Assembly: GCA_040377305.1 (NCBI GenBank)
Contig: JBEIPA010000010.1
Span: forward strand, 96,001 to 160,000
DNA length: 64,000 nucleotides
Reading direction: 5' to 3'
Source: Flavobacteriales bacterium
GTDB lineage: Bacteria > Bacteroidota > Bacteroidia > Palsa-965
The translations under genes were made by a program, and so were the position numbers. The notes under the pieces are model-generated. The model ran no database searches. It was given only the letters and a program-made list of their open reading frames with translations, and was not told the DNA's origin. Every line of letters begins with the position of its first letter. The first letter of the stretch is position 1. Below are positions 17,751 to 44,167 of the stretch, in pieces.

Positions 17751-17833
17751 GGTGTAAAGGTACAGAATTAGGGATTGAGGAATGAGGTATGTGGAATGAG
17801 GGAAATGGAACATTGGATTCGTAAATTCACCGT

Positions 17834-18765: not shown

Positions 18766-19233
18766 ATGTGGAGAATTGGTTTTCTGGCGTCATACTCAAA
18801 ACGATGCTGGATGATTCGCTATTGTACTATATTTTTCCTGCTGATTTTCAATGGCGTAAGCAACGCTGTGTCTTGCCGACTCGTTGACACATCCGAAGCT
18901 TGTGACACGATTATCATCTCAATTGATCAGAAATTAATCCGAACCGTTTCAATTCCCGCGAGCGGGCAATATGATTCGACTACAACTGAGGTAAGAGTGA
19001 TTGTTCAGATCAAGAACGAATGCAACATCCGCATTCAAGTCTGGTACAATTCTCTGTATTATGAATTGACTTTACCTTCGGATTTGCGCGCCTACGGACG
19101 TGTAATTCACTTGAGCATATATACGTCAAAGGTCAAGAAGAGCACACCATCTGTATGCAGTTACGGTGCGCAGGCCGGGCAGCTTGGAGTTTGCGGATAT
19201 GGAATCGTCATGAAATGCGAGCCCAATGAATAA
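18766..19233 (+). CDS. Hypothetical, possibly secreted protein (start may be 18811)
   Basis: ORF fills the xerD-yhhQ gap; signal-like segment after M16; no recognised family. Confidence 0.45.
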   Translation: MWRIGFLASYSKRCWMIRYCTIFFLLIFNGVSNAVSCRLVDTSEACDTIIISIDQKLIRTVSIPASGQYDSTTTEVRVIVQIKNECNIRIQVWYNSLYYELTLPSDLRAYGRVIHLSIYTSKVKKSTPSVCSYGAQAGQLGVCGYGIVMKCEPNE

Positions 19234-19938
19234 CTACTCCGAAACCTTTTCCGCCGCTTCCTCCAGCAAATGCGCCTTCTCATCTCCCAGATATTTCTCC
19301 ACGATCCAGTGGAAGAGATAAATGAGCGGAGTCAATCCAATTGCGATCATTAGTTTGAAAATGTAATTGGTTGCGCCGGTGCTCATCCATTGCGATATCG
19401 TGAAGATTCCGGGAACAACGAATCCGATGAACAAGACAATGAACGTATCGATGAGCTGAGAGATGACCGTTGATCCGGTAGCGCGCAACCAAATGTACTT
19501 CCCTCCAGTTCTCTTCTTGAAATACCAGAATACGAATGAGTCAACGAGTTGTCCGACGAAGAACGCGGTGATACTACCTGCGATAATCCACATCGATTGC
19601 CCGAAGACCGCGTTGAATTGTTCGTCGTTCACAACACCCGGAACAACAAACGCCTTGGGTTGCATGGCGAGGTAGACGATCAGAAATGTGATGGCGATCA
19701 TTACGGATGTGATGACCGAAACCATTCTCAGAATTTTTCTCCCGTAATATTCGTTGATGATGTCGGTTGTAAGAAATACAATCGGCCAAGGCAGAATACC
19801 GACTATAGAAACGTAAGTTCCCATGCTACCGAGATCAATCTGGAACAACTTGGAACTGATCAACTCCGCCGTCACCGCGCAGGTAATGAACACTGCGATG
19901 AGCACTATGAGCAGACGTGTAGGTTTGTTGAGTTTCAT
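19234..19938 (-). CDS. yhhQ: Queuosine precursor transporter (Vut_1/YhhQ)
   Basis: FLTTDIINEYYG, GSITAFFVGQLVD, WLRATGSTVISQLIDT; ATG 19938 preferred over TTG 19977, which lies inside repeat copy 1. Confidence 0.88.
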   Translation of the reverse strand: MKLNKPTRLLIVLIAVFITCAVTAELISSKLFQIDLGSMGTYVSIVGILPWPIVFLTTDIINEYYGRKILRMVSVITSVMIAITFLIVYLAMQPKAFVVPGVVNDEQFNAVFGQSMWIIAGSITAFFVGQLVDSFVFWYFKKRTGGKYIWLRATGSTVISQLIDTFIVLFIGFVVPGIFTISQWMSTGATNYIFKLMIAIGLTPLIYLFHWIVEKYLGDEKAHLLEEAAEKVSE

Positions 19939-19964
19939 CTGAAGTAAATATAAGCACAGATAAT

Positions 19965-20277
19965 CTTGAGGTGCCAAATTGGTACTTCAAGTTGCTGTTG
20001 GGCAGTGCTTTTCCAGTGAAATCTTGAGGTGCCAAATTGGTACCTCAAGTTGTTGTTGGGCAGTGATTTTCCAGTGAAATCTTGAGGTGCCAACTTGGTA
20101 CCTCAAGTTGCATTTTGGTGGTGTTTTACCACTGAAATCTTGAGGTGCCAATTTGGTACCTCAAGTCGCAGGTTGCGGTGTTGTACCATGAAATCTTGAG
20201 GTGCCAATTTGGTACCTCAAGTCGCAGGTTGCGGTGTTGTAACATGAAATCTTGAGGTGCCAATTTGGTACCTCAAG
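19965..20277. repeat. Array of six 27-bp palindromes CTTGAGGTGCCAA[A/C/T]TTGGTACCTCAAG separated by 29-31 bp related spacers
   Basis: Copies start at 19965 (one C>T), 20023, 20081, 20139, 20195, 20251; periods 58,58,58,56,56. Confidence 0.97.
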
Positions 20278-20304: not shown

Positions 20305-20312
20305 TATATTTG
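20305..20312 (+). promoter_or_regulatory. Bacteroidota sigma-A -7 element for the ORF6N gene
   Basis: TATATTTG 27 bp after the last repeat and 42 bp before ATG 20355. Confidence 0.65.
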
Positions 20313-20354: not shown

Positions 20355-20930
20355 ATGAAAGCGACAAAAAGATCAGCAATACCGAATGAAAGAATCATGA
20401 ATCGGATTTATTTCATTCGGGGACAAAAAGTGTTGATCGACAAAGATCTGGCATCACTCTACGCCGTTGAAACCAAAACATTGAATCGTGCTGTTCAACG
20501 TAACATCAAAAGGTTCCCGGCCGACTTTATGTTCCAACTCACTCCTGAAGAGACTGAAAACTTGAGGTACCAAATTGGCACCTCAAGCTGGGGCGGTAAC
20601 AGAAGAATGCCACATGTATTCACCGAGCAAGGTGTTGCCATGCTTTCAGGTGTTCTAAATAGTGAGCGGGCAATAATGGTGAACATTCAGATCATGCGCG
20701 TCTTTACGGAAGTCCGCAAAATGTTATTCGATAACTCCGAACTCCGCCTTGCTATTGAGCAAATCAGAAAGAAGACAGAAAACAACACGAAAAATATTGA
20801 AGTGGTTTTCCGGTATTTCGACGACTTTCTCGCGGCAAAAGAAAAAGAGAAACGCAAAGCAAGGAAATCTCCAATTGGATTTAAGCTCCCGAACACGACA
20901 CGAAAAAAAGTGGTTCGCAGAAAATCATGA
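20355..20930 (+). CDS. ORF6N-domain (KilA-N-like) DNA-binding protein
   Basis: IRGQKVLIDKDLASLYAVETKTLNRAVQRNIKRFPADFMFQLT...FTEQGVAMLSGVLNSERAIMVNIQIMRVF; coiled coil and PIGF tail. Confidence 0.9.
   Translation: MKATKRSAIPNERIMNRIYFIRGQKVLIDKDLASLYAVETKTLNRAVQRNIKRFPADFMFQLTPEETENLRYQIGTSSWGGNRRMPHVFTEQGVAMLSGVLNSERAIMVNIQIMRVFTEVRKMLFDNSELRLAIEQIRKKTENNTKNIEVVFRYFDDFLAAKEKEKRKARKSPIGFKLPNTTRKKVVRRKS
20561..20587. repeat. Intragenic copy of the 27-bp palindrome
   Basis: CTTGAGGTACCAAATTGGCACCTCAAG, the exact reverse complement of array copies 4-6; encodes (N)LRYQIGTSS. Confidence 0.97.
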
Positions 20931-20945
20931 GTGCTGTTCTAACTG

Positions 20946-20978
20946 AATCTTGAGGTACCAATTTGGCACCTCAAGATT
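20946..20978. repeat. Downstream copy of the palindrome, extended to 33 bp and overlapping the bioA stop
   Basis: AATCTTGAGGTACCAATTTGGCACCTCAAGATT; core 20949-20975 is the exact reverse complement of copy 2. Confidence 0.97.
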
Positions 20979-22242
20979 GTTTTGCACTCAGAAATTCCTG
21001 AATACTATTAAACACTTTCCGGAGTTGCTCGCTGGAAATGCAATACGGCGGTATCACATAAATCACATTACCAAGTGGCCGGATGATTATTCCGCGTTCG
21101 TGAAAAAATGGCGCGACCTTCTCTCCTACTGCTGCGAGATAACCGTGCTCTTGCGATTTCAACTCAACGGCCAATATGGTTCCACATGCCCGTGCATCTT
21201 TTACAAGAGGGTTTCCCAGAAACCATTCAGCTGCTTCGCGCATTGATTCAATCAGTCCTTGTATCTCGTTCCTGGTCTTCGGCAATTCAAGCAATTCTAA
21301 ACTAGCTACACTTGCTGCGCATGCCAACGGATTGGCGGTGTACGAATGCCCATGAAAGAATGTCTTCGTTCGATCTGCGGTTTCGTATGCAGAATAAATT
21401 TCCTTCGTACACAATGTTGCACCCAGCGGCATGAATCCACCCGTCAATCCTTTTGACAAACAAATGATATCCGGTTTGTGTTTGCAGCCGTCTGTCGCGA
21501 ACATTTTTCCTGTGCGACCGAATCCAGTCATGACTTCATCGGCGATGGTTATCACGCCGTGTTGCTTACACACTGCAATTAAGTTGTCAAGTGCGGCGTG
21601 CGAGTACATGATCATTCCAGCAGCACCTTGCACGATGGGTTCGAAAATGAATGCAGCCGAATTGGCATCGAGGGTTTTCTTAAGCGCGGTTATTGATTCC
21701 TCTTCTCTTCCTGGTACAGGAACCGGGATGTGAATCACTTCAAACAAAAATGGACTGAACGCGTTGCTGAAAACATTTCTTGCACCAACGGACATACTTC
21801 CGAACGTATCTCCGTGGTATGCGTTTTCAAATGCAATTACTTTTGTGCGTGGAGTTACTTTGTTGTGCCAGTATTGGAAGGCCATTTTCAGTGCGACTTC
21901 TACTGAAGTTGAGCCATCGTCACTGTAAAACACCTTGTCCATGTAAGGCAACTGTGATTTCAGTTTTTCGGCGAGAGCTACTGCAGGTTCATGTGTGTAT
22001 CCCGAAAACAACACATGCTCCATCTGATCGAGCTGCTGTTTGATTGCTTTCGTGATATGCGGATTGCAATGGCCGTGAATGTTCACCCACCAGGATGAAA
22101 TGGCATCGATATAGGTGTTGTTGTTTTCATCGAACAACAGTGCTCCTTTGCCACGAACCATGGCAACATTAGGTTCGGTGCCAATTTGTGGTGTGAACGG
22201 ATGCCAGATGTGTTGCTTGTCGCGATCGGAAAGAGAACTCAC
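20971..22242 (-). CDS. bioA: Adenosylmethionine-8-amino-7-oxononanoate aminotransferase
   Basis: IWHPFT, DAISSWWVNIHGH, YHGDTFG, DEVMTGFGRTG, SKGLTGG, HGHSYTAN. Confidence 0.96.
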   Translation of the reverse strand: MSSLSDRDKQHIWHPFTPQIGTEPNVAMVRGKGALLFDENNNTYIDAISSWWVNIHGHCNPHITKAIKQQLDQMEHVLFSGYTHEPAVALAEKLKSQLPYMDKVFYSDDGSTSVEVALKMAFQYWHNKVTPRTKVIAFENAYHGDTFGSMSVGARNVFSNAFSPFLFEVIHIPVPVPGREEESITALKKTLDANSAAFIFEPIVQGAAGMIMYSHAALDNLIAVCKQHGVITIADEVMTGFGRTGKMFATDGCKHKPDIICLSKGLTGGFMPLGATLCTKEIYSAYETADRTKTFFHGHSYTANPLACAASVASLELLELPKTRNEIQGLIESMREAAEWFLGNPLVKDARACGTILAVELKSQEHGYLAAVGEKVAPFFHERGIIIRPLGNVIYVIPPYCISSEQLRKVFNSIQEFLSAKQS

Positions 22243-44063: not shown

Positions 44064-44167
44064 GGGGCAAAGATAGCTAAATGAGTTGGGAGATTGGAGT
44101 TGGGAGTTGGTAGAAGGGCACGTTTCACGGGGAGAATAGGCGCTTCTCCTGTTAATTCATGAAAACC

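What the first reader, a model, noticed from the sequence alone, without database searches (positions are those of the whole stretch)
20553..20590. The intragenic palindrome is codon-compatible in both orientations, and the array copies read as in-frame peptide variants
Seen: the gene reads GAA AAC TTG AGG TAC CAA ATT GGC ACC TCA AGC TGG (ENLRYQIGTSSW). Flipping the 27-mer gives LRCQFGTS without a frameshift or stop, which is exactly copies 4-6. Copies 2 and 3 read EILRCQIGTSS and EILRCQLGTSS; the downstream copy reads LRYQFGTSR. The left flank (TGAAA[T/A] before copies 2-6 and the gene copy, TGAAT before the downstream copy) is in direct orientation, while the asymmetric core positions are G..T upstream and A..C in and after the gene. 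That pattern looks like core inversion or conversion within fixed arms. From my unverified recollection, ORF6N homologs vary here (LRSQFATS, LKSQIVTS, LRCQIGTS) in ways that keep a DNA palindrome, implying selection on the DNA rather than only the protein. Inference: hairpin-mediated inversion or gene conversion could switch this segment, which lies C-terminal to the predicted HTH.
Basis: partly seen in the sequence, partly recalled or inferred. Interest (0 to 1): 0.8.

Follow-up and report, generated by a model that had tools for sequence, protein, structure and literature searches.

The report
Gene carrying its own operator inside
A 27-base DNA palindrome lies in frame inside this gene and in seven copies around it, and across related genes its bases change in step with three amino acids of the protein's predicted DNA-reading helix, so the protein most likely binds its own gene, and the proposed peptide switching by inversion is likely not what the palindrome is for.

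Summary
In detail: the 27-mer at 20561-20587 lies in frame in an ORF6N gene, and its flip equals array copies 4-6. Selection on the DNA is confirmed: 99 of 108 homologous genes keep a palindrome at the same codon, with compensatory changes. Switching is not supported: among Arg45 genes asymmetric at this pair, 13 of 13 keep one orientation; close relatives and available contigs show no flipped allele. What the data show instead: in 153 non-redundant genes the palindrome bases track residues 41, 42 and 45 of the predicted recognition helix, including synonymous codons, genes reading the palindrome in another frame, and non-coding copies. Most likely the protein binds its own gene and promoter as a self-repressing cassette, here inserted between bioA and vut. 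No other cognate site was found in the genome. Binding is inferred, not measured. I found no paper describing this; this scan reported the same self-operator on three other genomes (seen after my own result).

The parts
20355..20930 (+). ORF6N-domain gene (191 aa; P0001): predicted small alpha/beta DNA-binding domain, long C-terminal helix, terminal IGF motif
   Evidence: Pfam PF10543 aa 16-100, E 4.7e-35; PADLOC PDC-S05 E 4.7e-63; model mean pLDDT 80.8 with helix 104-169
20475..20489 (+). Codons 41-45 (Lys41, Thr42, Arg45) in predicted helix 40-49: the inferred specificity residues
   Evidence: Covariation with palindrome bases across 153 genes; coordinates; helix
20561..20587 (.). Intragenic 27-bp palindrome (13+1+13, one mismatched pair), encodes residues 70-77; inferred operator
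   Evidence: same codon position in homologs
19965..20277 (.). Tandem array of six copies (starts 19965, 20023, 20081, 20139, 20195, 20251; period 58/56 bp), core inverted relative to the gene copy; inferred promoter operators
20949..20975 (.). Downstream copy; it contains the TGA stop codon of bioA (20971-20973, minus strand) and marks the right edge of the insert
20305..20312 (+). Possible -7 promoter element (TAnnTTTG, Bacteroidota consensus recalled, not from a call), 27 nt after copy 6; tentative
   Evidence: Motif match; the sigma-70 scan found nothing here
20874..20882 (+). C-terminal Ile-Gly-Phe motif, conserved across the family; role unexplained
   Evidence: G175 invariant in A1; [IVMLF]G[FY] in 174 of 186 complete non-redundant genes
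19234..19977 (-). vut (Vut_1 transporter family), left neighbour; copy 1 lies over its start region
   Evidence: PF02592; synteny
20971..22242 (-). bioA-like class III aminotransferase (name from gene order with bioD/bioF/bioB-like ORFs and from recall), right neighbour
   Evidence: PF00202; synteny

Best explanation
The palindrome is most likely the DNA binding site (operator) of the ORF6N protein that the same gene encodes, and the protein likely represses its own gene by binding this site and the copies at its predicted promoter and 3' end. Shown: the site sits at a fixed codon in nearly all sampled homologs, and its bases follow helix residues (Lys41 with G at -7; Gln45, Glu45 and Arg/Lys45 with A, G and C at -4; residues 42/45 with -5). 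Inferred: a dimer, joined by the long C-terminal helix, puts one recognition helix on each half-site; the A/T-tract centre is read by shape; bound protein blocks the promoter and hinders elongation. Because the operator is inside the coding sequence, gene and site move as one unit into new places (here between bioA and vut). Specificity has been re-set many times in evolution, likely so that paralogs and newcomers are not cross-silenced. Hairpin template switching or conversion likely helps to keep the arms matched and to copy the site into the flanks, with a single flip in the ancestor of this array, but as slow evolution rather than a working switch.
For: Fixed-position palindrome in 99 of 108 unique genes against 37 of 44,736 control positions. 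In 153 non-redundant genes the top covarying columns are 45 and 42 for bases -5/-4 (z 56, 38; next 46 at 15, all others under 7) and 41 for -8/-7 (z 27). Lys41 goes with G(-7) in 96 of 96 genes on both arms; Glu45 with G(-4) in 31 of 31; Gln45 with A in 55 and 56 of 57; Arg45 with C in 41 and 38 of 41. Synonymous test: Gly75 is GGA in 21 of 21 Lys45 genes and GGC in 38 of 38 Arg45 genes, also with Phe72 fixed (21 against 6). On a tree built without the helix and loop, residue 45 needs 68 changes (shuffled mean 80); independent pairs go the same way for Arg45 12 of 12 (p 5e-4), Gln45 9.8 of 10, Glu45 7 of 7, Lys41 9.3 of 12, never the opposite way, while controls are null. Outside the training set: 4 of 4 genes that read the palindrome in another frame obey the code; 26 of 44 genes have a matching non-coding copy against 12.8 by permutation, 0 of 10,000; 16 of 16 further genes have a matching site, 3 of them only outside the coding sequence. 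The syntenic ortholog in G015 has Arg41/Asn42/Lys45 and all four of its palindromes are of the Lys45 type. DNA between helix and palindrome carries no signal. The pairings fit general amino acid-base preferences (recalled: Arg/Lys-G, Gln/Asn-A, Glu-C).
Against: No binding or expression data. 18 of 44 genes have flanking family palindromes that do not match their own helix, and only 45 of 161 genes with enough flank have any flanking copy, so promoter operators are not general. Some genes have lost the in-gene site (for example L006, L009, L042, L046). The fold assignment is weak: best matches are Ski/Dachshund domains at Foldseek E 0.12 and Z 6.2. The promoter call is tentative. The rule was fitted on the 153 genes (151 match on at least one arm), which were pre-selected for a palindrome with a CA-N3-TG core. 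Autorepression alone does not explain why the site must be inside the gene or why specificity changes so often.
Confidence: 0.68

Rival explanations
1. Same protein-DNA recognition, different purpose: the protein is an anti-phage or toxic effector and its own sites act as a self-immunity mark or sink that keeps it inactive, as aba does for BstA; loss or dilution of the sites on infection releases it.
For: Strong match to PADLOC candidate PDC-S05. One PDC-S05 representative, described as having a RhuM domain, cut plating of T7 and T5 about 1000-fold (PMC12881386, passages), and RhuM genes also carry an in-frame palindrome at a fixed offset (8 of 9 parsed). No cognate site elsewhere in the genome. 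Fast specificity change fits conflict. BstA has cognate aba elements overlapping its gene (PMC8585504, passages).
Against: The tested PDC-S05 protein was not described as ORF6N. This locus is not in a defence island; among 78 neighbouring ORFs of a sample of loci most named hits are housekeeping or unrelated, with a few restriction-modification genes. No catalytic domain was found.
Confidence: 0.18
2. The protein-bound palindromes serve the movement of the cassette: they mark its ends or recruit host recombination, so the gene spreads without a transposase.
For: Terminal copies lie at both edges of the insert in G000 and G015, one supplying the bioA stop codon; the insert is in 2 of 28 vut loci of the genus. 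ORF6N genes split conserved gene pairs elsewhere (pheS/pheT L081, ftsW/murG-like L129, topoisomerase pair L023, hsdM/hsdS L020). Some genes hold tandem in-frame units of different types, several at exact 27-nt spacing.
Against: Most genes have no flanking copy by my filter (45 of 161). No dedicated recombinase: the nearby xerD-like gene is also beside vut in relatives without the cassette.
Confidence: 0.07
3. One reading: hairpin-mediated inversion or conversion from the array switches the peptide (Y/C, I/F/L) as a working diversification device.
For: The copies occur in both orientations and fold as DNA hairpins (z -3.9 to -6.9). Centre trinucleotides come in reverse-complement pairs (AAT 54/ATT 49, AAA 12/TTT 14, with no ATA or TAT), and centre-only A/T differences occur in 5 of 51 near-identical pairs. 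Template switching is a known source of arm homogenisation and spacer inversion (PMC8604942, abstract).
Against: Polarised asymmetry, 13 of 13 (p 2.4e-4, not corrected for kinship); the flipped arm pair was not seen in any gene for the six commonest asymmetric types although the peptide would be acceptable. No flipped allele in contigs, clusters or near-identical genes. Arrays are rare; peptide identity is not what is conserved (other-frame genes). The centre pattern also fits a preference for A/T tracts without TpA steps (inference).
Confidence: 0.04
4. The covariation needs no DNA binding: helix residues contact the palindrome-coded peptide inside the protein, or helix and palindrome are swapped as one DNA block, or the palindrome is an mRNA hairpin.
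For: Most base changes in the site also change a residue; a stem with a 3-nt loop is possible, and pair 1 does not covary.
Against: Synonymous codons follow the helix; other-frame genes and non-coding copies obey the code; codons 47-68 carry no signal; in L032, L073 and L024 a non-cognate unit lies between the helix and the cognate one; no excess of G-U-type mismatches on the sense strand (7 against 17 A-C).
Confidence: 0.03

Closest known systems
ORF6N domain family (Pfam PF10543); PHROG 4792 'anti-repressor'; PADLOC candidate PDC-S05
   Same: P0001 matches all three.
   Different: None of the papers my searches listed describes a target site, an intragenic palindrome or a recognition code. 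The one tested PDC-S05 protein was described as RhuM-domain (PMC12881386, passages).
Helix-turn-helix repressor/operator pairs with diverging specificity and operators inside genes (lambdoid cI/Cro immunity types, lac O2, gal OI; recalled, no call)
   Same: Dyad site, specificity residues on one helix face, copies at the promoter, likely autorepression.
   Different: Here the main site is in the protein's own coding sequence, at a fixed codon across many phyla, it encodes part of the DNA-binding domain, and no other target was found in the genome.
HK022 Roi (Clerget and Boccard 1996; paper not held; only the reference and one sentence seen in PMC3430580; 'binds a site in its own gene' is recalled)
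   Same: Phage antirepressor-type protein recalled to bind its own gene.
   Different: The ORF I take to be Roi (241 aa, between P and Q) is Rha-like plus ANT, shows no profile similarity to A1 (probability 0.1) and has only a short imperfect palindrome after its helix.
BstA with its aba element (Owen et al. 2021, PMC8585504, passages)
   Same: Single gene with a cognate DNA element overlapping the gene; variants are cognate-specific; KilA-N-like domain reported.
   Different: aba is 63 bp with terminal direct repeats at the gene start; direct binding was left open in the passages read; BstA has shown abortive-infection activity, P0001 has none shown.
Template switching at quasi-palindromes (Abraham and Hazkani-Covo 2021, PMC8604942, abstract)
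   Same: Can homogenise arms and invert spacers inside coding sequence.
   Different: A mutational process; it does not predict coupling to helix residues 70-90 nt away.
Rickettsia palindromic elements and REP sequences (recalled)
   Same: Palindromes that read in frame inside genes.
   Different: Those are dispersed over many genes or intergenic sites; this one was found only at its own locus.

Membership tests
ORF6N (PF10543) | Profile match above the curated cut-off | tested here: met
   120.2 bits against 27.8, full profile 1-86
PADLOC PDC-S05 | Match to the family models | tested here: met
   Three models, best E 4.7e-63 over residues 6-169
PADLOC PDC-S05 | Anti-phage activity | not testable with these tools
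   Reported for one RhuM-domain representative only
HTH repressor/operator pair | Dyad site whose bases depend on recognition-helix residues | tested here: met
   Comparative evidence only:
HTH repressor/operator pair | Known DNA-binding fold | tested here: inconclusive
   Ski/Dachshund domains rank first by Foldseek (E 0.12, prob 0.96); Z 6.2, rmsd 3.0, 82 aligned
HTH repressor/operator pair | Operator at the promoter | tested here: inconclusive
   Copy 6 ends 27 nt before a recalled -7 motif; no transcript data; upstream copies in other loci cluster 25-100 nt before the gene
HTH repressor/operator pair | Physical binding and repression | not testable with these tools
   Needs binding and reporter assays
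Invertible phase-variation switch or shufflon | Both orientations of the segment present among genes or close strains | tested here: not met
   13 of 13 one orientation; none; rare alleles not excluded
Invertible phase-variation switch or shufflon | Dedicated site-specific recombinase | tested here: inconclusive
   A xerD-like gene lies 1.2 kb away but is also beside vut in relatives without the cassette
CRISPR array | Unique, unrelated spacers | tested here: not met
   Units are 90% alike over the whole period; spacers after copies 4 and 5 are nearly identical
CRISPR array | cas genes | not tested
   Only five window proteins were scanned against Pfam
REP / Rickettsia palindromic element | Dispersed copies across the genome or in unrelated genes | tested here: not met
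   All 8 copies at one locus
BstA/aba | Cognate DNA element overlapping the protein's own gene | tested here: met
   By covariation; architecture differs from aba
BstA/aba | KilA-N-like domain | tested here: inconclusive
   Only weak fold matches were obtained
BstA/aba | Abortive infection suppressed by the element | not testable with these tools
   Needs phage assays
HK022 Roi (Rha-like + ANT) | Sequence similarity and domain set | tested here: not met

The most novel reading that the evidence does not exclude
ORF6N (and probably RhuM and Bro-N-like) genes are a large class of one-gene conflict cassettes that carry their own recognition mark inside the coding sequence. The protein reads that mark with a three-residue code, uses it as self-immunity or a sink that holds an anti-phage activity in check, and escapes cross-talk by repeatedly re-coding helix and site together, with new in-frame 27-bp units added beside old ones as intermediates and terminal copies bounding the moving cassette.
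Probability: 0.2. Interest if true: 0.9.

Novelty: new variant of a known kind. Interest (0 to 1): 0.72.

Why it matters
It gives a very common uncharacterised family (7,991 relatives among the 7,999 candidates scored; a candidate defence family in PADLOC) a predicted target and a simple, testable recognition code read straight from genomes. A protein whose binding site is written into the DNA for its own binding domain, and whose helix and two half-sites have changed together dozens of times, is a natural data set for how protein-DNA specificity evolves, and a possible source of orthogonal repressor/operator pairs. It also suggests how PDC-S05 proteins could be controlled.

Tried and rejected
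Reads: only contigs were available, no RNA holder listed. Run X1 (may be the source) and X2 (another study, contig over 20384-20709, no differences) show the window's allele; X3 laid nothing. This cannot exclude rare alleles. Homodimer prediction (residues 8-178, two copies): no answer, score 0.24 against a mark of 0.42, controls not folded. Solved relatives by sequence: nothing meaningful. Fold searches gave only weak matches and listed no KilA-N/APSES chain among the rows shown; absence there excludes nothing. The ESM Atlas returned only ORF6N clusters. Sigma-70 promoter scan: chance level. Cross-regulation by paralogs as the reason for non-cognate flanking sites: looked at in passing in 20 extra regions; the one other G029 paralog is Lys45-type and does not match the upstream site of L004; not resolved. 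The careful tree did not finish; the quick tree (116 columns, 19 starred branches of 150) was used. Rows dropped: 8 of 121 profile hits and 14 of 296 lacked the anchor motifs; 60 of 282 genes were left out of the covariation set (no single palindrome at offset 33, or truncated), and 222 were reduced to 153 at 90% identity; 11 of 55 genes with a flanking palindrome were dropped as not family-like or lacking the helix, 3 of 20 regions gave no parsable gene, one gene had Thr45 (no rule) and one parse was spurious. The Roi paper was not held. Literature searches that found no description of this feature: (open-access library only). Not seen: Supplementary Data 4 of PMC12881386 and the supplementary tables of 10.1101/2024.01.29.577857, which would show which PDC-S05 cluster was tested and how the family was built. 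CRISPR, REP-like element, mRNA hairpin and block exchange were considered and rejected for the reasons given in the membership table and rivals.

Full report
Observation. The gene at 20355-20930 encodes a 191-aa ORF6N protein. It holds a 27-bp odd palindrome at 20561-20587; six copies lie upstream in a 58/56-bp tandem array and one lies downstream. The flip of the gene copy equals copies 4-6 and the flip of the downstream copy equals copy 2. Eight copies were found against 0.00 expected, and no further copy in the genome at up to 4 mismatches. Codon compatibility of the flip says little: three bases change, and 147 of 153 homologous palindromes also flip without a stop. The array copies are in different frames with stops between them.

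Setting. In the genus, a vut match was found in 25 of 27 genomes. Of 28 loci around it, 25 also show bioA, and only 2 (this genome and G015) have an ORF6N gene or family palindromes there (one locus, L281, is from the unpublished G012). The insert is bounded by palindrome copies in both genomes, and here the downstream copy supplies the bioA stop codon. The genome has two more ORF6N genes, each with its own palindromes in the same loop, one with three in-frame units. In a Pfam scan of 78 ORFs next to ORF6N genes in other loci, the neighbours are varied, and several genes sit between normally adjacent housekeeping genes.

The palindrome is a family trait. From 110 loci, 113 of 121 profile hits could be anchored; of 108 unique genes, 99 have at most 3 mismatches in 12 pairs at the same codon, against 37 of 44,736 control positions. 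In the 100 best, pairs 2-13 are 89-100% complementary with several pair types each (pairs 4 and 5: 94 and 93 observed against 34 and 40 expected), pair 1 does not covary, and the centre is A or T in 99. G-U-type mismatches on the sense strand are not favoured (7 against 17 A-C), which speaks against an mRNA stem.

What the palindrome tracks. The model has a helix at 40-49, a helix at 64-74 followed by a loop (the palindrome codes residues 70-77), and a long helix at 104-169; fold matches are weak, to Ski/Dachshund domains. With 270 loci, 282 of 296 hits were anchored, 222 had one palindrome at the standard offset, and 153 remained below 90% identity. In these, bases -5/-4 covary with residues 45 and 42 (z 56 and 38; residue 46 at 15; others under 7) and bases -8/-7 with residue 41 (z 27). 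Lys41 goes with G at -7 in 96 of 96 genes on both arms; Glu45 with G at -4 in 31 of 31; Gln45 with A in 55 and 56 of 57; Arg45 with C in 41 and 38 of 41; Lys45 with C in 21 of 22. This window's protein has Lys41, Thr42, Arg45, and every one of its 8 copies has the predicted half-site on one arm and a one-base variant, also seen in other Arg45 genes, on the other.

Controls. Kinship: on a quick tree built without helix and loop, residue 45 needs 68 changes (shuffled mean 80); independent pairs on well-supported branches go the same way for Arg45 in 12 of 12 (p 5e-4), Gln45 9.8 of 10, Glu45 7 of 7, Lys45 5.4 of 6 (p 0.06) and Lys41 9.3 of 12, never the opposite way; three control pairings are null. 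Peptide contact: Gly75 is coded GGA in 21 of 21 Lys45 genes and GGC in 38 of 38 Arg45 genes, also when residue 72 is Phe (21 against 6); 4 of 4 genes that read the same core in another frame obey the code. Block exchange: the signal lies in the first two positions of codons 45 and 42, and codons 47-68 carry none; in three multi-unit genes a non-cognate unit lies between the helix and the cognate unit. Non-coding copies: 26 of 44 genes have a matching flank copy against 12.8 by permutation, 0 of 10,000 (one of the 26, L016, is from the unpublished G012), including genes that lost the in-gene site; but 18 of 44 do not match, and only 45 of 161 genes with enough flank have any copy. New genes: 16 of 16 with a residue covered by the rule have a fully matching site, 3 only outside the coding sequence (same genus or class as part of the training set). 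The syntenic G015 ortholog, sister to this gene on the tree, has Arg41/Asn42/Lys45 and four palindromes all of the Lys45 type.

The switching idea. If the core flipped often, asymmetric arms would appear in both orientations. Among Arg45 genes asymmetric at pair 5, 13 of 13 deviate on the left arm (p 2.4e-4, kinship not corrected); for the six commonest asymmetric arm pairs the flipped form was not seen although its peptide is acceptable; overall 16 of 56 genes with a compatible flip have it in another gene, in rarer types. My reading is that the arm base that is synonymous follows the binding optimum and the other bends to the protein. Among 51 near-identical gene pairs (many are viral near-copies), 12 differ in the palindrome, 5 only at the centre base, none by inversion of an asymmetric core. 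Eight protein clusters of 2-15 members show no flip-type pair. Contigs of two runs show the window's allele, which cannot exclude rare variants. In favour of some inversion over long times: the copies fold as DNA hairpins, centre triplets come as reverse-complement pairs, and all 7 non-coding copies here keep the gene's asymmetry, six of them inverted, so the site was copied from the gene and flipped at least once before the array expanded (inference). Template switching can do this (PMC8604942, abstract).

Mechanism. Shown: fixed in-frame palindrome, compensatory change, helix-to-base code, concerted change at a syntenic locus, no other cognate site in the genome at up to 2 mismatches in the inner 17 bp. 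Inferred: a dimer binds the dyad with one helix per half-site; binding at the array and in the gene represses the gene; the built-in site makes the cassette self-regulating wherever it lands; specificity is re-set to avoid cross-silencing among paralogs. Why expression needs such control is open; the match to the candidate defence family PDC-S05 and the conserved C-terminal IG[FY] motif point to a conflict role, and a BstA/aba-like sink is the main rival.

Comparison with what is known. Member of ORF6N/PDC-S05 by profile. PDC families were defined by embedding in defence systems and left untested (10.1101/2024.01.29.577857, passages); one PDC-S05 representative with a RhuM domain protected against T7, T5 and T4 (PMC12881386 and its preprint, passages); PMC12988326 (passages) adds only distribution. 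It works like a repressor/operator pair; operators inside genes and the HK022 Roi precedent are recalled, the Roi paper was not held, and the Roi-like ORF is not detectably related. BstA/aba (PMC8585504, passages) is the closest tested case of a cognate element in a protein's own locus. It is not a shufflon, CRISPR array or REP-like element on the features tested. RhuM genes show an in-frame palindrome at a fixed offset too (8 of 9 parsed from 30 loci; 8), so the design may be wider. Nine searches of the open-access library (listings only) found no description of it. Three earlier notes of this scan report the same self-operator on other genomes; I saw them, and they are not independent support.

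Verdict. Real feature; first reading half right. New variant of a known kind, interest 0.72; binding remains to be measured.

Noticed in passing
G000:C15 about 85406-85813, minus strand (outside the window): An ORF with a Bro-N-like look (label recalled, not scanned) holds an in-frame palindrome with the same CAA-W-TTG centre as the ORF6N site.
   Followed up: partly
L320-L349 (RhuM loci): RhuM genes carry an odd palindrome at a fixed offset after their helix, with varied arms (8 of 9 parsed); helix covariation not tested, sample too small.
   Followed up: partly
window 20874-20882: Conserved C-terminal [IVMLF]G[FY] motif in 174 of 186 genes; it recalls the IGF loop by which ClpX docks on ClpP (recalled, untested).
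   Followed up: partly
G000:C24 about 76900-77570; L024, L032, L073, L095, L121, L131, L137, L302, L307, L312: ORF6N genes with two to four in-frame palindrome units of different specificity types, several at exact 27-nt spacing; possible intermediates of specificity change.
   Followed up: partly
L020, L075, L089, L147, L183, L263 and others: Upstream non-coding palindromes of the Gln45 type lie before genes whose helix is Arg45 type; relic sites or cross-regulation by paralogs, unexplained.
   Followed up: partly
L306 (G015:C242): A gene with Thr45 and a fifth site type (CT at -5/-4).
   Followed up: no
L005, L008, L021, L028, L117, L141, L188: Two or three ORF6N genes in tandem, each with a different helix and its own matching palindrome.
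   Followed up: partly
window 18766-19233: A 155-aa ORF without Pfam match between the xerD-like gene and vut; no hit in the other 27 vut loci of the genus.
   Followed up: partly
G000, many contigs: Several dispersed REP-like palindrome families (types beginning ACCCTGCAAG, AAACCTTAAAGG and AAAAAATGGC) in the palindrome list.
   Followed up: no
window 17779-17810 and 44083-44110: Short intergenic tandem repeats.
   Followed up: no
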